64,000 nucleotides of DNA from a phage. Each line of letters starts with the position of its first letter. The first letter of the stretch is position 1. Shown here in pieces: positions 1,553 to 13,337 of the stretch. The translations under genes and the position numbers were made by a program. The DNA is taken from NCBI GenBank assembly GCA_024673055.1, contig GCA_024673055.1_4537.1. One strand, 5' to 3'. Below the pieces are notes generated by a model. It did no database searches. It worked only from the letters and a program-made list of their open reading frames with translations, and had not been told where the DNA came from.

Positions 1553-3331
1553 GTGTCGCACATTATAACTAAATATGGATTTGATGTTGATCTTAGCAAG
1601 GAAGGGCATACAGGTTGTCCGCGCTGCATGAAAAATGGCAAGGATCGCTCTCGTAATAACCTGATGGTTTATGGATTAGATTCTAATGGAGAGCATAAAG
1701 GTGCTAAGTGCTTTGCGTGTGAATACACTATTCCTAGCGTAGAATGGTTACGAGAAAATGGTGAAGTTTTAGAAGAAGAGGAGGAGATTGTGGGTTCGGA
1801 ATTTAATAAACAGATTCATCGTAAAATTGTTCAAGAAACATCAACCAACCCACGTGGTTATCGAGGCATTAAAGAAAAAGTTTCATCTTTCTATGGTGTT
1901 CGTTATGAATACCGTCAGGAAGGGGATCAGATGGTAGTAGAAAGTTGTTTATATCCAACTACTATCGGTAAAGAATTGGTTGGTTTTAAGCGTCGTATTC
2001 ATCCTAAAGATTTCAGTAAACCTATTGGTCAAGTAGGTAAAGATGTAGATCTTTTTGGACAAATTCGTTTTGCAGACCGTTCTCATACTGTGGTAATTAC
2101 AGGTGGTGAACACGATGCTCTGGCAGCTTATCAAATGCTGTCTGAAAACTTGGACAACAAATATGAACTTCCAGCAGTAGTTAGTGGCACAACTGGTGAA
2201 ACCAGTATGTATAAACAAGTTCAGGCACAATATCCTTTTTTTGAAAAATTTAAGAAGATTATTGTTTGCATGGATAATGACAAAGCAGGTAATGAGGCAT
2301 TTGAAAATATTGTTAAGGTGCTGCCTCGTAACAAAGTCTACCGTATGCAGATGGATCTTAAGGATGCCAATCAGTATCTGGAAGAAGGTCGTGCAAAGGA
2401 TTTCGTAAAAGCTTTTTGGAGTGCTCGTCTATACACCCCAGCAGGTGTTTATGCTTCTAATGTCTTGTATGAAGCTGCATTAGAATGCTTGGAATCCAAG
2501 ATGATTACCTTGCCTCCTTTTATGCGTGTTGCTGCAAATATGCTGGGTGGTGGTTTAGTAGAGGAAGAGATTACAGTCATCCTGGCAAAGACCAGTATCG
2601 GTAAAACTTTGATGGTGAACGAGATCACCAAACATATTATTGTTGCGCACCCAGAACATACCCTAGGTATTCTGTCCTTGGAAGCAACTTATAAGAAATA
2701 TTCTCGTAACCTGTTGTCCTCGTTCCTGCATATTCCTCTACACAGGAAAACACCGGAAGAGAAATTTCAAATCTTGGAAGAGAATAAAGAAAAAATCCTA
2801 GATTTTTACGAAAGAGAAGATGGATCACCACGTTTTTATGTATGTGATGATCGTGGAGCAGATGTGGAGTCTATCAAAGAAAAAGTTTTGGAGATGATCA
2901 TCTATTTTGGAGTAACAATTCTTGTTATCGACCCTTATTCTGATTTGCTTTCTGGTATGGATGTTCAAGCCCAGGAAGAGTTAGCAACATGGTTGAAGCG
3001 CATCATGAAAGAGTATGCTATAACTATTATCGTCATCTCACACGTTAAGAAATCGGCTAATGGTGGCAATGAACACTTAACAGAGGACGATGCAATGGGT
3101 AGTAGTTTCTTGGCTAAAGGTGCTGGTATTACCTTGGCTTTGGAACGAGATAAAGCCGCTGAAGACCCTGTAGAACGCAATACGACTCATTGCTTTATCC
3201 TAAAAAACCGTGAGTTTTCGGAAACTGGTCCGGCAGGGCAGTTTTACTATGACATTAGAACTGCAACTCTGCATGACAAAGAGCAGTATTTCAACAATCC
3301 TGCTAATTTGCCTACGGATAGCAACTATTAA
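1553..3331 (+). CDS. DNA primase/helicase (T7 gp4-like)
   Basis: N-terminal Cys4 zinc ribbon (CPRC...CFAC), TOPRIM-like segment (VVITGGEHDALAAY), DnaB-type Walker A (ILAKTSIGKT) and Walker B (LVIDPYSDL). GTG start preceded by CAGGAGA. Confidence 0.85.
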   Translation: MSHIITKYGFDVDLSKEGHTGCPRCMKNGKDRSRNNLMVYGLDSNGEHKGAKCFACEYTIPSVEWLRENGEVLEEEEEIVGSEFNKQIHRKIVQETSTNPRGYRGIKEKVSSFYGVRYEYRQEGDQMVVESCLYPTTIGKELVGFKRRIHPKDFSKPIGQVGKDVDLFGQIRFADRSHTVVITGGEHDALAAYQMLSENLDNKYELPAVVSGTTGETSMYKQVQAQYPFFEKFKKIIVCMDNDKAGNEAFENIVKVLPRNKVYRMQMDLKDANQYLEEGRAKDFVKAFWSARLYTPAGVYASNVLYEAALECLESKMITLPPFMRVAANMLGGGLVEEEITVILAKTSIGKTLMVNEITKHIIVAHPEHTLGILSLEATYKKYSRNLLSSFLHIPLHRKTPEEKFQILEENKEKILDFYEREDGSPRFYVCDDRGADVESIKEKVLEMIIYFGVTILVIDPYSDLLSGMDVQAQEELATWLKRIMKEYAITIIVISHVKKSANGGNEHLTEDDAMGSSFLAKGAGITLALERDKAAEDPVERNTTHCFILKNREFSETGPAGQFYYDIRTATLHDKEQYFNNPANLPTDSNY

Positions 3332-3350
3332 GGGCTTCGGCCCTTTTATT
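3331..3350 (+). terminator. Rho-independent terminator after primase-helicase
   Basis: Hairpin GGGC-TTCG-GCCC followed by TTTTATT immediately after the stop codon. Confidence 0.55.
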
Positions 3351-3361
3351 AAAAATACCTG

Positions 3362-3390
3362 TTGACAACTTTACGGAAGGGACTTATACT
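3362..3390 (+). promoter_or_regulatory. Sigma70-like promoter
   Basis: TTGACA, 17-bp spacer, TATACT; followed by an RBS (AGAGGAG) and ATG at 3423. Confidence 0.55.
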
Positions 3391-3422
3391 TGTCTCATCA
3401 ACCAAACAAGAGGAGAAGTAAA

Positions 3423-3854
3423 ATGCGTATGACAATCGATCTGAATGCAAAAGTTAAAGCTGCTGGTGCTCTGGGTGCTGGTGTTATTAAACACAAACAA
3501 GCGTTGGCATTTGCCATCCCACATATGATTGTTGAGGATCATCCTGAAGAGTTTGCTGTAAAAGTTGTTGAGAATAATGTCTCTGTTATTGAACATCTTC
3601 CAACTGGACGTTCTTACCGTGTTGTTTCTTCTAAAGGTTTCCGTTTCGATGTAAGCCCTTCTTTCACAAAAGGTGCTGGTCGTAGTAAAGTGGGTATTCT
3701 TTCTTACAAATATTATATCGATAAAGTTGCAGATGGTGTTGCCTTCTGTCGTGTAAGTGAAGGTAAAGTAGATATCATCTTTAAAAATACCAAAAACATG
3801 GTTATTTCTGACGATGGTAAAGTTGACCTCACTATTGAGTTCGCTAACAACTAA
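3423..3854 (+). CDS. Hypothetical protein
   Basis: ORF track frame 3390..3854; the ATG at 3423 with an upstream AGAGGAG RBS is preferred because the track start overlaps the -10 box. Confidence 0.5.
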   Translation: MRMTIDLNAKVKAAGALGAGVIKHKQALAFAIPHMIVEDHPEEFAVKVVENNVSVIEHLPTGRSYRVVSSKGFRFDVSPSFTKGAGRSKVGILSYKYYIDKVADGVAFCRVSEGKVDIIFKNTKNMVISDDGKVDLTIEFANN

Positions 3855-3863
3855 GGAGGACTA

Positions 3864-4658
3864 TTGAGCAAGTTGAACACACTTGATCAATATTACACTA
3901 ACCCCGCTTATGCGGGGTTCTTATGTGATAAGATCAAAGAAATTTTTGGAGAGGAAGCTAACTACGTAGAACCATCTGCGGGAGAAGGAGCTTTCTCTTC
4001 TTGTTTTAAAAACATAACTTCTTTTGATATTGACCCTAAGTTTGAAGATTGTATTGAGGCAGATTTTTTAGCTCAATCTGTTGAGTCTGTTGGTAGTGTA
4101 ACTGCTTTTGTCGGTAATCCCCCGTTTGGAAAAAATGCTAGTCTTGCCATTAAGTTCTTTAACCATTGTGCTGAAATGTTGGATAACGAAGGTGGTATTT
4201 GTTTTATCTTGCCTCGCACATTTCAAAAAATCTTTTTTGCACACAAACTAAATCCCCACATGCATCTTCTTTACGAAGAAGAATGTCCAAAAGGATCTTT
4301 TATTCTTCATGGAGAACCTTGGGATGTTCCTTGCGTATTCCAGATATGGATTAAACGCAATGAGAAGCGTTCTCCCGTTGTTTTAGGAGAGAATCGACTG
4401 TTCGTATTAGGTAACAGTAAAGACTACGATATAGCCGTTAGGAGAGCGGGAGCAAGTGCAGGTAAAGTGTTATCAGAAGAAGATTCTTTATCTGAAGCAT
4501 CCACCTATTTTTTAAAAGCCTTGACTTCTGATCTTAAAACGCGTATCATTGAGGCTTACCCGTTACTTAAAGCTGAAGCTAGTAAAACTGCGGGAGTAAG
4601 AAGTTTAAGTTTAAAAGAACTTCAGTGGGTTCTGGAGAACATTAGAAAGGAGGAATAG
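3864..4658 (+). CDS. DNA N6-adenine (or N4-cytosine) methyltransferase
   Basis: SAM-binding motif I (VEPSAGEGAF) followed closely by catalytic motif IV (GNPPFGKN); motif order I then IV suggests gamma-class. TTG start after AGGAGG. Confidence 0.8.
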   Translation: MSKLNTLDQYYTNPAYAGFLCDKIKEIFGEEANYVEPSAGEGAFSSCFKNITSFDIDPKFEDCIEADFLAQSVESVGSVTAFVGNPPFGKNASLAIKFFNHCAEMLDNEGGICFILPRTFQKIFFAHKLNPHMHLLYEEECPKGSFILHGEPWDVPCVFQIWIKRNEKRSPVVLGENRLFVLGNSKDYDIAVRRAGASAGKVLSEEDSLSEASTYFLKALTSDLKTRIIEAYPLLKAEASKTAGVRSLSLKELQWVLENIRKEE

Positions 4659-8408: not shown

Positions 8409-8627
8409 ATGCGTAAATTAGTGAGCTTTAATGTTTCAATTTTTGTTGATGAACAAAATGAAGATGTTATTAAGGGTCTTGCAAATAAGATTGCAGGTGG
8501 AATGACGGAAGCTGAAGTGTGGGAAGAATGTGCTCGACTTTATGAGGAAGGTGTTATTGAGGTCTTGGGGGATGAGATTAATATGGACGATGTTGTAAAA
8601 GTAACTGTGGAGCGTATCAATGACTAA
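8409..8627 (+). CDS. Hypothetical protein
   Basis: 72 aa ORF preceded by a GGAGAAAA RBS. Confidence 0.5.
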   Translation: MRKLVSFNVSIFVDEQNEDVIKGLANKIAGGMTEAEVWEECARLYEEGVIEVLGDEINMDDVVKVTVERIND

Positions 8628-9213
8628 ATCAAAACAAATCAATATTGCCAAAGAAATTCTTACCGTATTAAAGATCGCTGATCCTAATTCTGTCTTGGCT
8701 GGCGGTGCTGTTCGTGATTGGCGTATTCTTGATATTGCTGGACGTGATCTGGATTTCTATACATCCCTTCCTGCACATCGGACTGAAGAACAAATACAAG
8801 GATTAATTGCATCTGCTTTAATGGGAACCAATATTCGTAAACTAGGAAACAAAGAGGCTTCTGACAATTATGAAGGTGTTACTGGTCTTAAACACGTTTT
8901 TGAGTTTGAACGTGATGGTCAGCTTTGCAACCTTATGATTATGGAACCAAGCGTAATGACAACCTTTCTAAATGAGTTCGATCTGTCCATCTGCCAAGCT
9001 GCATTTGATGGGAAGGATTGTTATTATTCTAAAGATTTTGAAACAACCTTGGAAACAGGGATCTGCTTCTTGCACAAAGACGTTAGAGAAGATGCCAAAC
9101 ACGTTATTAAAATTGCTACACGTTTCCCATATCTTCGTTTTGTGAAAGAGGTTAAGGTTCCACGTCCACCTCAAGTAGATACCAGATTGGAAGAAGATGA
9201 TATTCCTTGGTAA
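8620..9213 (+). CDS. Pol-beta superfamily nucleotidyltransferase (CCA-adding / poly(A) polymerase head-domain-like)
   Basis: GGAVRD motif followed by DxD (LAGGAVRDWRILDIAGRDLDFY). The C-terminus ends EEDDIPW, resembling the SSB tip DDDIPF. Confidence 0.6.
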   Translation: MTKSKQINIAKEILTVLKIADPNSVLAGGAVRDWRILDIAGRDLDFYTSLPAHRTEEQIQGLIASALMGTNIRKLGNKEASDNYEGVTGLKHVFEFERDGQLCNLMIMEPSVMTTFLNEFDLSICQAAFDGKDCYYSKDFETTLETGICFLHKDVREDAKHVIKIATRFPYLRFVKEVKVPRPPQVDTRLEEDDIPW

Positions 9214-9258: not shown

Positions 9259-9651
9259 ATGACTGAACGTTCTAAGATAGCTGTTGAAACTGTTTATGGA
9301 AACTATACCAGTTTGACACTAGTTGAGAAAAATGTTGTAGGTCTTGACAACTCTTTTTATTTTCAAATTTTGGTTATTCAAGGTGGAAACAAGAAGCTAA
9401 CTGCTCGTGTTGAAACATCTGAAATAATTGAAACCACTGTTACAAACAAAGAATTCATTTCACTGCAAGATACAATCCGAAACGTTATAGACGAAGAAGG
9501 CAAAGCTGCCACAATTAAACTCGGAGGTTTTCCAGTGCAAATAGTTCATTTCCCTAATGGTGAAATTGGAGTTGGAATAGGTAAAGGTAAATACCTGTTA
9601 GAGCAAGATGATATGGAAAGACTCCGCTCTTTCTGTGCAAAATTAATGTAA
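9259..9651 (+). CDS. Hypothetical protein
   Basis: 130 aa ORF in operon context. Confidence 0.5.
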   Translation: MTERSKIAVETVYGNYTSLTLVEKNVVGLDNSFYFQILVIQGGNKKLTARVETSEIIETTVTNKEFISLQDTIRNVIDEEGKAATIKLGGFPVQIVHFPNGEIGVGIGKGKYLLEQDDMERLRSFCAKLM

Positions 9652-9667
9652 TGTAGAGGAGATAATA

Positions 9668-10600
9668 ATGTCCGTAATTAATACTGAAACTGATCGTAAA
9701 GGCAAAACCGTAACTTATGCAACTGGTATCGTAGACTACGTTAAACTGGATAAATTCGCTGAACCTAAAACTTTTCATTGGGAAGGAAAAACGATTGTTT
9801 CAACTCACCGAGCTTCTCTTGTTCTGAAAGAGAAAGGTGCTAAACCAGATGAGAAAGGTGTTTGGATTTCTCTTGGTGACATTGAACTGAAAGAAGGTTA
9901 TGAAAACCTGCAAGTCAAAGAAGGTGATAATTGGATCACTATTGAAAAAGGTGTAGAAGTAAGTATTGATATTGATCGCGTTGATAATAAAGGCGGTAAA
10001 ACTTACTACAATACTAAAAAATCTCGTATTACAGTATTGTCTACCGATGGTGTTCAGAAGTCTAACAAATCTTCTGGCAATAAAGGTTCCAACGATGCTG
10101 CTCCTAAGCAATCCTATAAAAAACGTGATACTGTAGGTCTGGAAACTGGTCACGCAGTAAATGGTGCACTGGAACTGATTCGTAATGGTGTTAAAGGCGA
10201 TGCTTTCGATATCGCTGGGGTTGTTCAATCTGCAACTGTCACGCTGAAATCGGAAATTGCTGAATCTCGTGGCGTTGATATTAATGATTATGATCTTGGG
10301 GCATCTGTTGGTCACGCTATTCTTAATGCTTGTAAAGACCATACCATTAAGACTGTATCTGTAGAAGATCTGATTGACTCTGCTCGTAAAGTTCTAGCTC
10401 TGTCTGATAAAGTTGCTGCTGCCATTCGTGGTTCCGCAGAACAACCTAAGAAAGAAGAGAAGAAAGAAGTTAAAAAGCCTGAACCACAACCAGAACCAAC
10501 TCCAAGTAATCAAGAAGAACCTCCAATGGACTTCGACGATGATATTCCATTTGCTCCTATTGGACTGCAATATGGTCGAAACTTCCTGCATTGCTTCTAA
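9668..10600 (+). CDS. Putative single-stranded DNA-binding protein
   Basis: Acidic C-terminal region containing the E. coli SSB-type motif DFDDDIPF, Lys-rich linker, position in the replication module. Assignment is inferred. Confidence 0.45.
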   Translation: MSVINTETDRKGKTVTYATGIVDYVKLDKFAEPKTFHWEGKTIVSTHRASLVLKEKGAKPDEKGVWISLGDIELKEGYENLQVKEGDNWITIEKGVEVSIDIDRVDNKGGKTYYNTKKSRITVLSTDGVQKSNKSSGNKGSNDAAPKQSYKKRDTVGLETGHAVNGALELIRNGVKGDAFDIAGVVQSATVTLKSEIAESRGVDINDYDLGASVGHAILNACKDHTIKTVSVEDLIDSARKVLALSDKVAAAIRGSAEQPKKEEKKEVKKPEPQPEPTPSNQEEPPMDFDDDIPFAPIGLQYGRNFLHCF

Positions 10601-10640
10601 GGTTTGTTTCAAGTGTGTGAGGTTGAACGCTGAATAAAAG

Positions 10641-10670
10641 AAAGGAGCCATTTGGCTCCTTTTCTTATTT
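10641..10670. terminator. Bidirectional rho-independent terminator at the convergence of plus and minus gene blocks
   Basis: Perfect 9-bp inverted repeat AAAGGAGCC / GGCTCCTTT with a 4-nt loop, flanked by A-run and T-run; lies between the stops of convergent genes. Confidence 0.6.
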
Positions 10671-13337
10671 ATAATTGGAAGGAATGTTGTTATAATCAGA
10701 AAGTTTTGTGCAATACCTGAATAGGTAACTATTAGCTACTCCGCCTAATGTATTTGTTAATGTTGTTCCTGTTCCTGTAAGATTTGTGCATCCACTAAAG
10801 AAAGAAGATAATGCTCCACGTTTACCACAAACAGTTAACCCTGGGTTGTCATTAAAGATTTTATTAAAATCTGTAAGTGCTAAACAACCTTGGAATGTGG
10901 CTGTTAAAGAGGTCACTTTCGTTGGAATATTATCAAACATTCCTGCTGGAACTTCTGCAAGAGAGGTGCAATCTTTAAAGGTGTAAGAATATCTTGTAAC
11001 TTTTGATAGATTCTTAAATAAATCTGAAGGAATAGATGTTAAAGATGTACAACCTTCAAACGTGCTTGACATTGTTGTCATTGAAGGAAATAAAGCATCA
11101 CTGAATAATCCTTCAGGGATAGCTGTCAAACTTGTGCAGCCAGAGAAGATACCGCTTATAGATGTTCCGGTGTAAGATGTGTTACTAAAACAATCAGAAG
11201 TTATTCGTCTTAAGTTAGCACAACCTTTTAAGAATTGTGAGGCTGGGCTTGTAGAATAACCAATTCTGTTGCCGCCCCATAATTCTAAAAGATCTGGATT
11301 TGCTTCCATAGACACATCAACACTATTCACTACTGAAGCACTTGCAAATTCAATAGCCAGTCTATATTCTCCTGCTGGATAACTATCCACTGTAGAGAAA
11401 GCTTTATTTCTAAATATTACTTTATTTGAAGGTATTACAACGTCATCCACCTTAACTACAAAGTTAGCTGGTGTGACAGTACCCGATAAAATTGGGAACG
11501 TAATTGCCCCATCTGCCGAGTGGTTGAAATATCCGTTTAGAACCGTTAAACTACTACTCGGAGATGGAGCTAACTCCTTTCCCGCAACAGCGTTCACCGT
11601 TAAATAAGAACTATCAGAAGCGGTAACAACACCTTGATATGTAGCTGTGCAACCAATCCTACAACCACCATCACCAACACCAGTTATTACACCAGTTGTA
11701 GGATCTACTGTAGCAACACTAGGATCTGTAGTTGTATACTCAACAACCATACCAGGTAAGCTTGCTGCTCCTGTTGGTGTTATTTCTGCTACCATTGTTT
11801 GTGTTGTTCCTACATCCATCGCAGATAAGCTAGGGGTGTAAACACTCAATGTTGAAGCATACCCTCCAGAGGTATCTGATAAAGTTGTTCCTTCAGCGTT
11901 TAAGGCTGTCATACCTGCATCAAAACCACCTTCTGCATGGAAAGTCATTAAACCAGTAGATGATATTGTCATGTTTGCAGGGGCAGAAGAAGTGTATTTA
12001 ATATTGAAAAGTTTACCTCCTTCTGGGCTAACAGAATGTGTCAACTGTTTAGTTCCACCTACAATACAAATTCCTAAAGAATCTGTAGTTAAGCTAGTTG
12101 CCAGCACATCTCCCGTAATCACAGAGCTTGCTATCGGTGTGAATTTATTATAATTTAGACCACTGTTGAACAGATACGAGGCTTTCCCATCTTTCCAAAT
12201 ACCGGAATAATACATATCCCCGTTATAAACGAAAAAGGTTCCTTGATAACCTAATTGGTTAGTAATATCCATATTCAGCGTATGAACGCTTGTGAGCTTG
12301 TTTATATCCCAGGAACCCACTCCTTCAGGTTTAACTGGTTTTCCCACTTGGAGTGGATCTCCGCTCGCAGAATCATACCCCAAACCTAAGTTTGCAGTGT
12401 AGTTCTTACCAATAGCCCACAAGGAATTATTGATCCCAACGAAAAAAGAGTGGCGGCTTGGTGGAAATTTCCATGTTGAGAAACCTGCTGCAAAGGTGTC
12501 CAGTTTAGTGTAGGTTGTTTCTGTATTAGACCTAACATATAAGTAGTTTACTGTACCCGTGCCGCCGGAGGTATCTCCTACAACTATTGTCTGGGAAACT
12601 GTATTGATGTAATCTTTGACATACACTGTTTCAGTAGTGGATATCGTGGCATTGACAAAAGCGGTTGTTGTGTTATTATTACCTGCTAAACCTTTACTAG
12701 CTCCACAAACACGCAAGGTTCCCACATTGTTGACATAAGAGCATTGGTTGTAACCTGCATCAAAAGCAACTGCTGAACTTGTTATCTGACGAGGAGTAGA
12801 AACTTCGTTAGTAGTGCTTGCACCTAAACTACCTACTGTGTTTTGACCCGATCCATAAAGAACACCACTATTCATTAACCAGAGAGTATTGTTATACCCT
12901 CCTTTAACCTCTTTAAGATTGGCTAAAGAAATAGTCCCTGTTATTACAGATGGAAAGCTGGTCCAAGTAGTTACACATGCATCCGTACCACCTGCTGCTA
13001 TAGATCCTACCAACCCTGCTGTCAATCCTGAATATTGCCATCCCCCACTATTAGTTTTAATAACAAAACAACGATCTGCGGTAAACACATCCGCTACTAC
13101 AGTAGAAGCTAAGTGGAAATTATTGAATCGTGCACTACGAGTTCCATCTGCAATCTCACCAAAGAGGTTTGCGCCTTGAGTAAACAATCTACCATCATTA
13201 AGCAAAATTGCTAAACTACTGTTAGAATTACCAGCGTTATCTGGGTAATCTAAAGTAATTACTTTTTTAACAATACCTGCTGGCAGAGGAACGACACCAG
13301 TACTGGTCATAATAGTAAATATTGGAATTGGAAACAT
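10665..13337 (-). CDS. Receptor-binding tail protein with Ig-like (Big_2-like) and BspA-type leucine-rich-repeat C-terminal domains
   Basis: C-terminal tandem repeats F-x-GC-TSLT-x-IP-x-x-LF (five or more copies), a Big_2-like segment (VAEITPTGAASLPGMVVEYTTTDPSVATVD) and N-terminal RCC1-like G-x-N-x-x-G-x-LG motifs. Confidence 0.6.
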   Translation of the reverse strand: MFPIPIFTIMTSTGVVPLPAGIVKKVITLDYPDNAGNSNSSLAILLNDGRLFTQGANLFGEIADGTRSARFNNFHLASTVVADVFTADRCFVIKTNSGGWQYSGLTAGLVGSIAAGGTDACVTTWTSFPSVITGTISLANLKEVKGGYNNTLWLMNSGVLYGSGQNTVGSLGASTTNEVSTPRQITSSAVAFDAGYNQCSYVNNVGTLRVCGASKGLAGNNNTTTAFVNATISTTETVYVKDYINTVSQTIVVGDTSGGTGTVNYLYVRSNTETTYTKLDTFAAGFSTWKFPPSRHSFFVGINNSLWAIGKNYTANLGLGYDSASGDPLQVGKPVKPEGVGSWDINKLTSVHTLNMDITNQLGYQGTFFVYNGDMYYSGIWKDGKASYLFNSGLNYNKFTPIASSVITGDVLATSLTTDSLGICIVGGTKQLTHSVSPEGGKLFNIKYTSSAPANMTISSTGLMTFHAEGGFDAGMTALNAEGTTLSDTSGGYASTLSVYTPSLSAMDVGTTQTMVAEITPTGAASLPGMVVEYTTTDPSVATVDPTTGVITGVGDGGCRIGCTATYQGVVTASDSSYLTVNAVAGKELAPSPSSSLTVLNGYFNHSADGAITFPILSGTVTPANFVVKVDDVVIPSNKVIFRNKAFSTVDSYPAGEYRLAIEFASASVVNSVDVSMEANPDLLELWGGNRIGYSTSPASQFLKGCANLRRITSDCFSNTSYTGTSISGIFSGCTSLTAIPEGLFSDALFPSMTTMSSTFEGCTSLTSIPSDLFKNLSKVTRYSYTFKDCTSLAEVPAGMFDNIPTKVTSLTATFQGCLALTDFNKIFNDNPGLTVCGKRGALSSFFSGCTNLTGTGTTLTNTLGGVANSYLFRYCTKLSDYNNIPSNYK

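What the first reader, a model, noticed from the sequence alone, without database searches (positions are those of the whole stretch)
9668..10600. SSB-like protein with an internal DDDIPF motif followed by a 15-residue extension
The canonical bacterial SSB tip DDDIPF appears as ...EEPPMDFDDDIPF but is followed by APIGLQYGRNFLHCF before the stop. In SSBs the motif must be C-terminal to work, so this is either a distinct protein that borrows the motif, a regulated tail, or an upstream sequence change that moved the stop.
Basis: seen in the sequence. Interest (0 to 1): 0.4.

Follow-up and report, generated by a model that had tools for sequence, protein, structure and literature searches.

The report
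Capped SSB tail beside endonuclease scar
This phage's single-strand-DNA-binding-like protein carries the host-type DDDIPF docking tip buried under a 15-residue "cap"; the cap is one case of a conserved, laterally mobile tail module found on many phage and prophage SSBs, and here it arrived alongside a homing endonuclease gene that has since been deleted.

Summary
ORF 9668-10600 (310 aa) ends ...EEPPMDFDDDIPF-APIGLQYGRNFLHCF*. It is not an error: at least 11 phage records and a 110-member protein cluster carry the same form.

The window is a Phapecoctavirus. The protein belongs to the SSB-like family phrog_4477, which includes Bas52_0087, the DRT10 trigger. Its predicted layout is an OB-like beta domain, a four-helix domain and a disordered tail that copies the E. 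coli SSB tip.

The extension is not private to this phage. A 14-16 aa cap of the form F-AP[IV]GLQY-x2-3-h-[LI]-x-[CAV]-h, followed by a stop, follows DDDIPF in:
- all 52 viral-contig hits and 10 bacterial hits of a degenerate DNA scan (41 distinct caps);
- 28 of 120 homologues found by whole-protein similarity;
- classical SSBs, other SSB-like families and a DnaB-like primase-helicase.

Residues my search did not fix are still constrained, so the cap is selected as a peptide. Gain or loss is recurrent: at least 8 and at least 13 events in two subfamilies.

The window's "QYG" subtype is linked to an HNH/EndoVII-type endonuclease gene whose start lies inside the cap. The window keeps only a 66-nt scar (10572-10637) and shows a recombination breakpoint at 10478-10506.

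The cap's function is inferred, not shown. I found no published description.

The parts
9656..9661 (+). Ribosome-binding site GAGGAG, 6 nt upstream of the ATG
   Evidence: Read directly from the sequence.
9668..10600 (+). SSB-like protein gene, 310 aa, capped allele
   Evidence: ORF. phrog_4477 at E=3.4e-97. 99.5% DNA identity to vB_EcoM_DE16 and 100% protein identity to phage nieznany.
9668..10042 (+). N-terminal all-beta domain (aa 1-125), OB-like
   Evidence: AlphaFold2 pLDDT about 90 with 10 strands. The best PDB matches by Foldseek E-value, all E>=0.011, are mainly to OB-containing chains: MCM N-terminal domains, the Ta0387 OB domain 2k75 (prob 1.0, TMt 0.48) and Lys/Asp-tRNA synthetases.
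10133..10426 (+). Four-helix domain (aa 156-253)
   Evidence: AlphaFold2 pLDDT 92-97, helices 156-172, 179-201, 208-223 and 232-253. This domain is shared with the rV5-type and Seunavirus homologues (tblastn region 154-295/310).
10427..10534 (+). Disordered P/E/K-rich linker (aa 254-289)
   Evidence: pLDDT about 50.
10478..10506 (+). Interval containing the recombination breakpoint (ssb nt 811-839)
   Evidence: The window is identical to the uncapped ECO340P1 allele over ssb nt 1-839 but differs from nieznany at 11 sites up to nt 810. From nt 811 to 887 it is identical to nieznany and differs from ECO340P1 at 840, 870 and 885 onward.
10535..10552 (+). DDDIPF (aa 290-295), host-type SSB tip, here internal
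   Evidence: This is the C-terminus in the 295-aa alleles.
10553..10597 (+). 15-aa cap APIGLQYGRNFLHCF (aa 296-310), 'QYG' subtype
   Evidence: Identical in phi92-type phages. Near-identical in SSE121 (APIGLQYGRNFIHCI) and similar in rV5-type CM1 (APVGLQYGKSRIHAL). It fits the consensus of 41 distinct caps.
10572..10637 (+). Scar of an HNH/EndoVII-type endonuclease ORF (MVETSCIASKVCFKC|VRLNAE*), which overlaps the cap in another frame
   Evidence: Alignment with nieznany. Its intact 164-aa ORF at L002 3905-4399 starts at the same ATG and ends with the same GLNAE*. The window lacks 429 nt. The intact gene is also present in Mt1B1_P17, ZCKP1 and PsgM04F. The intact protein matches phrog_2340 'endonuclease' at 1.5e-48.
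10640..10663 (.). Bidirectional intrinsic terminator between ssb and the convergent tail-fibre gene
   Evidence: The same GGAGCC-loop-GGCTCC hairpin follows ssb in phi92, SSE121 and KP13-26.
10665..13337 (-). Convergent tail-fibre gene (890 aa); it forms the right flank of the mosaic junction
   Evidence: Its 3' end does not align with the nieznany or ECO340P1 flanks. Window 10621-10720 is 100% identical to AV125.

Best explanation
The ORF encodes the phage's SSB-like replication protein. Its layout is an OB-like domain, a helical domain and a disordered acidic tail that copies the E. coli SSB tip.

The 15 extra residues are one instance of a conserved, laterally mobile C-terminal 'cap'. Its consensus is F-AP[IV]GLQY-[GPA](R/K)x-h-[LI]-x-[CAV]-h, followed by a stop. 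Many phage, prophage and plasmid SSBs carry it directly after DDDIPF.

In Phapecoctavirus the cap came in by recombination at the 3' end of ssb, together with a free-standing HNH/EndoVII-type endonuclease gene whose start codon lies inside the cap (caaTATGg = Q-Y-G). In this window the endonuclease ORF was later deleted in frame, leaving a 66-nt scar and the cap.

Mechanistic inference: the cap removes the free alpha-carboxylate of Phe, which host SSB partners (ExoI, RecQ, PriA, chi) use for docking. It therefore changes what the tail can bind. The cap is itself selected as a peptide, and the DDDI residues remain strongly constrained beneath it. I therefore take DDDIPF plus cap to act as a composite docking motif that switches or gates partner choice. 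It is dispensable for phage viability, because most sister phages lack it.

Shown here: the anatomy, conservation, mobility, endonuclease linkage, scar and breakpoint.
Inferred: homing as the transfer mechanism, and any biochemical role of the cap.
For: Family and fold:
- phrog_4477 at E=3.4e-97.
- AlphaFold2 model with pLDDT 80.9. The best PDB fold matches, none significant, are mainly to OB-containing chains.
- A homologue, Bas52_0087, is predicted SSB-like with an FDDDIPF tip.

The cap is widespread:
- 28 of 120 homologues found by whole-protein similarity carry it, all sharing [AS]P[ILV]GL[QP]Y.
- All 52 IMG/VR hits and 10 of 31 bacterial hits of a degenerate DNA pattern are [DE]-rich-IPF plus a 14-16 aa cap and a stop.
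- There are 41 distinct caps, on classical SSBs, other SSB-like families and a DnaB-like primase-helicase.

Selection, measured on codons my pattern did not fix:
- DDI pN/pS = 0.08 and the seven tail codons 0.49, at saturated pS.
- The window and phi92 caps differ at 5 sites, all synonymous.

Mobility:
- At least 8 changes among 71 and at least 13 among 48 cluster representatives.
- Four allele states occur in Phapecoctavirus: uncapped; uncapped plus HNH; capped plus HNH; capped plus scar.
- The breakpoint lies at ssb nt 811-839.

Endonuclease linkage:
- QYG-type caps, 7 of 12 with an adjacent HNH, against 1 of 29 for other caps; Fisher p=2.5e-4.

Precedent:
- T4 segG sits beside and targets gene 32, with co-conversion (PMC2988022).
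Against: - No biochemical datum exists for any capped SSB, and no partner for the cap was identified.
- The AlphaFold2 model leaves the cap disordered and undocked.
- The OB assignment is weak: no PDB hit below E=0.01 and no Pfam SSB match.
- Homing by this endonuclease is not demonstrated. Ordinary recombination at a mosaic junction next to a variable tail-fibre end could give the same breakpoint.
- Most 14-aa caps have no endonuclease nearby, so the endonuclease cannot explain the cap's existence in general.
- The scar junction is not a clean junction of the nieznany sequence.
- The invariance of PFAP.GLQY among the L-loci is partly by construction of my search pattern.
Confidence: 0.55

Rival explanations
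1. Neutral hitchhiker. In this phage the cap is only the co-converted 5' arm of an endonuclease cassette. It is tolerated because the phage does not depend on a free SSB tip, and it has no function of its own.
For: - Most phapecoctaviruses end at DDDIPF with an otherwise identical protein.
- The last 8-9 cap codons double as the endonuclease's N-terminus.
- The QYG subtype is statistically tied to the endonuclease.
- The window retains a scar.
Against: - phi92-type and SSE121-type phages keep the same cap with only synonymous or conservative changes and no endonuclease ORF.
- Endonuclease-free 14-aa caps are conserved across saturated synonymous divergence, and their stop position is fixed.
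- The QYG tail preserves the same h-[LI]-x-[CAV]-h ending as endonuclease-free caps.
Confidence: 0.22
2. Pro-tail. The cap is a C-terminal pro-peptide removed by a host or phage protease between F295 and A296. Removal exposes a canonical DDDIPF-COOH at a controlled time or place.
For: - The DDDI residues stay under strong constraint beneath the cap (pN/pS 0.08).
- The most invariant cap residues (APIGLQY) lie immediately after the would-be cleavage site.
- The cap length is narrow, 14-17 aa.
- From general knowledge, the C-terminal extension of photosystem II D1 is removed by CtpA to free a carboxylate, which is an analogous case.
Against: No cytoplasmic C-terminal processing protease with such a site is known in Enterobacteria (my own knowledge). 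No protease gene co-varies with the cap: capped and uncapped phapecoctaviruses are otherwise near-identical at this locus. There is no direct evidence.
Confidence: 0.12
3. Not an SSB. The protein is a distinct protein that displays a host SSB-tail mimic as a decoy, to sequester or redirect host SSB partners such as ExoI/SbcB. The cap tunes that decoy.
For: - There is no Pfam SSB domain, and only the tail resembles E. coli SSB.
- The neighbouring nucleotidyltransferase also ends in an SSB-tip-like EEDDIPW.
- The Bas52_0087 authors suggest interference with SbcB.
Against: - The gene sits in the replication module next to the DNA polymerase gene.
- The model has an OB-like domain followed by a linker and a tip, which is the SSB architecture.
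- No classical SSB is encoded in the 64-kb window.
- A capped tip should be a poorer decoy for carboxylate-dependent pockets.
Confidence: 0.08
4. Artefact. A sequencing or assembly error, or a private frameshift, moved the stop codon.
For: None beyond the unusual look of the tail.
Against: The same 3' end appears in at least 11 independent genomes and in a 110-member cluster. The cap is conserved in distant genera.
Confidence: 0.01

Closest known systems
E. coli SSB C-terminal tip (SSB-Ct, ...PPMDFDDDIPF-COOH)
   Same: PPMDFDDDIPF is identical, preceded by a disordered linker.
   Different: Here the Phe is internal and followed by 15 residues. The free alpha-carboxylate used by ExoI, RecQ, PriA and chi (established structural knowledge) is absent. 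The DNA-binding body is not a PF00436 SSB.
Bas52_0087, the SSB-like protein of a Vequintavirus and trigger of the DRT10 defence (bioRxiv 10.64898/2026.04.29.721553)
   Same: Same protein family: the window protein hits 415-aa Vequintavirus-type homologues that share the helical domain and the tip. It is predicted to have an SSB-like architecture with an FDDDIPF tip.
   Different: The paper describes two OB domains and FDDDIPF as a C-terminal tip, and mentions no extension. I did not read the Bas52_0087 sequence itself. The window protein has one beta domain and a capped tip.
Free-standing homing endonucleases beside conserved phage genes, e.g. T4 segG between genes 32 and 59, which targets the SSB gene 32 (PMC2988022)
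   Same: An endonuclease ORF sits directly next to the phage SSB gene. Its presence is patchy among near-identical phages. There is a conversion-like tract in the SSB gene, and a promoter-less cassette is embedded in the upstream transcription unit.
   Different: This is an HNH/EndoVII-type enzyme (phrog_2340, phrog_1035), not GIY-YIG. Its start lies inside the SSB reading frame, and the cassette is associated with an altered SSB C-terminus. Cleavage and homing are untested.
T7 gp2.5 and gp4 acidic C-terminal tails ending in Phe
   Same: A shared acidic, aromatic-ended tail appears on both an SSB and a primase-helicase. Here the capped tail also occurs on a DnaB-like primase-helicase of KNP2-type phages.
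   Different: From general knowledge, the T7 tails need the terminal Phe. Here the Phe is followed by a conserved cap. There is no sequence relationship.
Beta-clamp-binding motifs (Q-phi-x-[LM]-[FL] and Q-phi-x-[LM]-x-[FL]; PMC11139829)
   Same: Both are short Gln-containing hydrophobic motifs at a disordered C-terminus.
   Different: QYPALL, QYRSIL and QYGRNF fail the required Leu/Met at position 4 and have Tyr at position 2. This is not a canonical clamp-binding motif.

Membership tests
Bacterial-type SSB (OB-fold SSB with SSB-Ct tip) | OB-fold ssDNA-binding domain | tested here: inconclusive
   AlphaFold2 gives a confident all-beta domain at aa 1-125. The best Foldseek PDB hits by E-value are mainly OB-containing chains, but all have E>=0.011. 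There is no PF00436 hit. A profile search of PDB sequences matches only the tail.
Bacterial-type SSB (OB-fold SSB with SSB-Ct tip) | Intrinsically disordered linker before the tip | tested here: met
   aa 254-289 are P/E/K-rich with pLDDT about 50.
Bacterial-type SSB (OB-fold SSB with SSB-Ct tip) | Acidic tip [DE]3-IPF at the extreme C-terminus with a free carboxylate | tested here: not met
   DDDIPF is at aa 290-295 of 310. The feature is met in the 295-aa sister alleles.
Bacterial-type SSB (OB-fold SSB with SSB-Ct tip) | Binds ssDNA and supports replication | not testable with these tools
   Needs biochemistry or genetics.
phrog_4477 / Bas52_0087-type phage SSB-like proteins | Full-length sequence similarity | tested here: met
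   phrog_4477 at E=3.4e-97. 237 homologues at E<=1e-3. tblastn hits in 331 phage records.
C-terminal 'cap' module on SSB tails (defined here) | [DE]-rich-[IV]PF followed by [AS]P[ILVFM][GT]L[QP][YF], then 7-10 residues ending h-[LI]-x-[CAV]-h (plus 0-2), then a stop | tested here: met
   APIGLQYGRNFLHCF aligns without gaps to 33 other caps. The identical cap occurs in phi92-type phages and in an unrelated 108-aa protein, P0153.
Free-standing homing endonuclease cassette | Intact endonuclease ORF | tested here: not met
   The window keeps only 21 codons (10572-10637). The ORF is intact in nieznany, Mt1B1_P17, ZCKP1 and PsgM04F, with phrog_2340 at 1.5e-48.
Free-standing homing endonuclease cassette | Presence/absence polymorphism among near-identical genomes at one site | tested here: met
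   Four allele states occur in Phapecoctavirus.
Free-standing homing endonuclease cassette | Co-conversion tract in the flanking gene | tested here: met
   The breakpoint at ssb nt 811-839 joins an ECO340P1-like body to a nieznany-like 3' end. This fits homing but does not prove it.
Free-standing homing endonuclease cassette | Site-specific cleavage of the endonuclease-free allele and super-Mendelian inheritance | not testable with these tools
   Needs an in vitro cleavage assay and mixed-infection crosses.
Beta-clamp-binding motif | Q-phi-x-[LM]-[FL] or Q-phi-x-[LM]-x-[FL] (PMC11139829) | tested here: not met
   In cap sequences position 4 is A, S, R or Q, and position 2 is Y.
ssrA-like C-terminal degron (…YALAA-COOH) | Terminal LAA-COOH or a similar fixed terminal residue pattern | tested here: not met
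   A few caps end YALA, YALYA or YAL, but most end CM, CI, AM, VI or CF, and extra terminal residues (S, A, P, YA) are tolerated. The resemblance is not general.

The most novel reading that the evidence does not exclude
The AP[IV]GLQY…h-[LI]-x-[CAV]-h cap is a dedicated, transferable device. Phages, prophages and plasmids would use it to gate the SSB tip. It could do this in either of two ways:
- by masking the free carboxylate, so that the phage SSB stays out of the host SSB interactome or out of reach of immune sensors that watch it;
- by turning DDDIPF into a longer composite motif for a different, still unknown partner.
A family of HNH endonuclease genes has specialised in homing into this very site while supplying a surrogate cap end. 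If so, this would be a new layer of regulation of one of the best-studied bacterial protein-interaction hubs.
Probability: 0.3. Interest if true: 0.75.

Novelty: new variant of a known kind. Interest (0 to 1): 0.55.

Why it matters
The free C-terminal Phe carboxylate of SSB is treated as indispensable for recruiting more than a dozen genome-maintenance enzymes, and it is a drug target. A widespread capped version of exactly this tip, selected at the peptide level, would have several consequences if it is functional:
- Mobile elements would have a simple way to switch the hub interaction off or redirect it.
- It gives a natural reagent (capped against uncapped isogenic phages already exist) for asking which phage processes need the host SSB interactome.
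- It bears on how defence systems triggered by phage SSB-like proteins (DRT10, retron Eco8) read their trigger.

The endonuclease linkage also gives a clean natural series (empty, invaded, decayed) for studying how a homing endonuclease can rewrite the end of an essential gene without destroying it.

Tried and rejected
1. Sequencing error or private frameshift: rejected.
2. Programmed frameshift giving an immediate stop after F295: reading the +1 and -1 frames after TTT shows no nearby stop.
3. The 295-aa allele as a 1-nt-insertion revertant of the capped allele (CCATTCTGATCTTATTGA against CCATT-TGCTCCTATTGGA): the resemblance is suggestive. However, nepoznato shows that TGATC... also follows an uncapped allele that has an endonuclease, so I do not rely on it.
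4. Clamp-binding motif: fails the published consensus.
5. ssrA-like or PDZ-type C-degron: the terminal residues are too variable.
6. Cap as escape from DRT10: unlikely. DRT10 restricts the BASEL Stephanstirmvirinae, and BASEL-named phi92-type phages EmilieFrey and JohannJBalmer carry capped forms. The trigger in those phages is not known.
7. Literature search for the motif strings APIGLQY, PIGLQY, IPFAPIG, DIPFAP and FAPIGL: none of these strings occurs in any paper; the only 3 hits were to 'GLQYP', and the 2 listed are unrelated.
8. Profile search with tail-only alignment A3: it returned only short fragments of 77 aa or less and was uninformative on families.
9. phmmer of the 42-aa tail against 1.84 billion representatives: only 17 hits passed. 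These were useful for extra variants but not for a census.
10. Foldseek against BFVD: only uncharacterized relatives.
11. Complex prediction with host proteins was not possible under the tool restrictions.

Full report
**Observation.** ORF 9668..10600 (+) encodes 310 aa and ends ...EEPPMDFDDDIPF-APIGLQYGRNFLHCF*. It has a GAGGAG ribosome-binding site 6 nt upstream. A bidirectional terminator at 10640-10663 separates it from a convergent tail-fibre gene. E. coli SSB matches the window only over this tail (88% over 17 aa). The same 310-aa form occurs in at least 11 phage records at 98-99.5% DNA identity and in a cluster of 110 sequences.

**What the protein is.** The window is a Phapecoctavirus (Stephanstirmvirinae), 99.5% identical here to vB_EcoM_DE16.
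- The protein has no Pfam domain but matches phrog_4477 at E=3.4e-97.
- It has 237 homologues in Stephanstirmvirinae, Vequintavirinae (rV5-type, about 415 aa) and Seunavirus-type phages.
- An AlphaFold2 model built on 69 homologues (pLDDT 80.9) shows a confident all-beta domain (aa 1-125), a disordered stretch, a four-helix domain (aa 156-253) and a disordered tail (aa 254-310).
- The best Foldseek PDB matches by E-value are mainly to OB-containing chains: MCM N-terminal domains, the Ta0387 OB domain, and Lys/Asp-tRNA synthetases. None is significant (E>=0.011), and the viral library returns only uncharacterized relatives.
- A 2026 preprint predicts that the rV5-type homologue Bas52_0087 is SSB-like with an FDDDIPF tip, and shows that it is needed to trigger the DRT10 defence.

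I therefore call the protein SSB-like. The OB fold is supported only weakly.

**The extension is a widespread module.** Most phapecoctaviruses encode a 295-aa protein ending exactly at DDDIPF*. Distant relatives nevertheless carry nearly the same extension:
- phi92: APIGLQYGRNFLHCF
- SSE121: APIGLQYGRNFIHCI
- rV5-type CM1: APVGLQYGKSRIHAL

Among 120 homologues found by whole-protein similarity, 28 have a 14-17 aa extension, and all share [AS]P[ILV]GL[QP]Y.

A degenerate DNA pattern for PF[AS]P[ILV]GLQY gave 52 IMG/VR loci. All of them are [DE]-rich-IPF followed by a 14-16 aa extension and a stop. Of 31 bacterial loci, 10 are the same kind: Sodalis, Providencia, Pseudoalteromonas, Oceanisphaera, Glaciecola, Vibrio (including a plasmid) and Parasphingorhabdus. 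The remaining bacterial hits are chance matches.

The carriers are classical OB-fold SSBs, two or three other small SSB-like families and the window's family. A 691-aa DnaB-like primase-helicase also carries the cap. Further variants include APVTLPFPRHAIHAI in E. coli and Klebsiella and APIGLPYPRHAIYVI in Proteus and Providencia.

There are 41 distinct caps, and they align to F-AP[IV]GLQY-[GPA](R/K)x-h-[LI]-x-[CAV]-h(+0-2).

One caveat applies. The invariance of PFAP.GLQY in the pattern-derived loci is by construction. The stop position, the hydrophobic ending and the acidic residues are not. For those unconstrained codons, pN/pS is 0.08 for DDI and 0.49 for the seven tail codons, at saturated synonymous divergence. 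The window and phi92 caps differ at five sites, all synonymous. The cap is therefore under purifying selection as a peptide, and the acidic tip stays constrained beneath it.

**Mobility and the endonuclease.** Mapping cap presence on neighbour-joining trees needs at least 8 changes among 71 representatives of the window's subfamily and at least 13 among 48 of the longer subfamily. Capped proteins are isolated tips among uncapped relatives.

Within Phapecoctavirus four states exist at this junction:
- **A:** uncapped, no endonuclease (the majority, e.g. ECO340P1).
- **B:** uncapped plus an endonuclease (nepoznato; AV125 matches the same right-hand flank but its ssb end was not read).
- **C:** capped plus an endonuclease (nieznany, Mt1B1_P17, ZCKP1, PsgM04F).
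- **D:** capped plus a scar (this window, DE16, 536P1, DIJ07P2, vB_Ec-G1, ECO340P2).

The endonuclease matches phrog_2340 'endonuclease' at 1.5e-48, with weaker matches to EndoVII and HNH families. It has an N-terminal CxxC...CxxC region and an HH...H...H nuclease motif (read from the translations). In state C its ATG lies inside the cap codons Q-Y-G (caaTATGg), so the last 8-9 cap codons also encode its N-terminus.

The window retains MVETSCIASKVCFKC|VRLNAE* (10572-10637), that is, the first 15 and last 5-6 codons, with 429 nt missing.

The window's ssb is identical to the uncapped ECO340P1 allele over nt 1-839, whereas it differs from nieznany at 11 sites up to nt 810. From nt 811 through the cap it is identical to nieznany apart from one silent change at nt 888, and it differs from ECO340P1 at 840, 870 and 885 onward. 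This places a recombination breakpoint at window 10478-10506. It is the pattern expected for co-conversion during homing.

Across all loci, caps of the 'QYG' subtype have an adjacent endonuclease in 7 of 12 types, against 1 of 29 for other caps (p=2.5e-4). In SSE121 the capped gene runs straight into the shared terminator with no remnant.

A precedent exists for an endonuclease gene beside and targeting a phage SSB gene: T4 segG and gene 32, with co-conversion.

**How it most likely works.**
- *Shown:* anatomy, conservation, patchiness, endonuclease linkage, scar and breakpoint.
- *Inferred (1):* the capped 3' end entered an ECO340P1-like genome by double-strand-break repair templated on an endonuclease-bearing allele, and the endonuclease ORF was later lost by an in-frame deletion.
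- *Inferred (2):* the cap abolishes the free Phe carboxylate that host SSB partners need (established structural knowledge on ExoI, RecQ, PriA and chi). It therefore changes the tail's binding repertoire.
- *Inferred (3):* both the cap and the DDDI residues are constrained, so the capped tail most likely acts as a longer composite docking motif or a gated tip. It is non-essential for the phage, because state-A phages thrive.

The QYG tail supplied with the endonuclease keeps the same hydrophobic ending as endonuclease-free caps. This suggests that the cassette must preserve cap function.

**Rivals.**
- A neutral hitchhiker (confidence 0.22) is weakened by conservation in endonuclease-free lineages.
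- A cleavable pro-tail (0.12) is attractive because of the constrained DDDI and the invariant residues just after F295, but no suitable protease is known.
- A non-SSB decoy (0.08).
- An artefact (0.01), already refuted.

**Rejected ideas.**
- The cap is not a canonical clamp-binding motif.
- It is not a general ssrA-like degron.
- There is no frameshift route to an early stop.
- It probably does not evade DRT10. That system restricts the BASEL Stephanstirmvirinae, and BASEL-named phi92-type phages EmilieFrey and JohannJBalmer carry capped forms.

**Novelty.** None of the cap-specific strings (APIGLQY, PIGLQY, IPFAPIG, DIPFAP, FAPIGL) occurs in any paper of the searched library. The DRT10 preprint describes FDDDIPF only as a C-terminal tip and mentions no extension. 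SSB tips and free-standing endonucleases are well known. A conserved mobile cap over the tip, and an endonuclease family tied to it, appear to be an undescribed variant. Interest is moderate to high for SSB and phage-defence specialists, and the hypotheses are directly testable because natural capped and uncapped sister phages exist.

Noticed in passing
window 8620-9213 (+): The nucleotidyltransferase-like gene (phrog_10174) two genes upstream ends in ...RLEEDDIPW*, an SSB-tip-like acidic tail with a terminal aromatic residue. The phi92 and KP13-26 orthologues lack it. This phage may therefore target a second protein to SSB-tip pockets.
   Followed up: partly
L018, L036 and L057 (KNP2-type Klebsiella phage contigs), 691-aa ORF: A DnaB-like primase-helicase (PF03796) ends ...GPDDDTPFAPIGLQYAKHAIYVI*, so it carries the same capped tail as SSBs. 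This recalls T7 gp4 and gp2.5, which share a tail.
   Followed up: partly
L050 (IMG/VR contig of 4,037 nt), ORF 2029-3934: An SU10-type portal ORF (PF23899, E=2.4e-178) reads without a stop into a Q-rich linker plus ...EFDDKIPFAPIGLQYRSILNCM*. That tail is otherwise the tail of a 176-aa SSB-like protein (L013, L021). It could be a real fusion or an assembly chimera.
   Followed up: no
L090 (phage nepoznato) 1086-1517 against L002 (nieznany) 3905-4399: The two endonucleases share a near-identical C-terminal nuclease half but have unrelated N-terminal zinc-ribbon regions. One sits after an uncapped ssb and the other after a capped ssb. This suggests a modular swap of the presumed DNA-recognition part.
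   Followed up: partly
window 10621-10720 and the 3' end of the tail-fibre gene 10665-13337 (-): The right flank of the junction is 100% identical to phage AV125 but does not align with nieznany or ECO340P1. The ssb/endonuclease site therefore abuts a mosaic boundary in the tail-fibre C-terminus, a possible link between endonuclease-induced breaks and host-range module exchange.
   Followed up: no
L011 (IMG/VR 56.6-kb contig), endonuclease ORF downstream of the capped 268-aa protein: The endonuclease frame (...SGVKQCFKCCETKPL...) is open upstream, but I found no ATG, GTG or TTG start between the previous stop and the zinc ribbon. This could mean an unusual start, a frameshift fusion or a pseudogene.
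   Followed up: no
window 9259-9651 (+): A 130-aa protein of unknown function (phrog_16560, E=1.1e-76) lies immediately upstream of the SSB-like gene, and the phi92 counterpart (gp157) occupies the same position. It is a candidate partner of the SSB-like protein.
   Followed up: no
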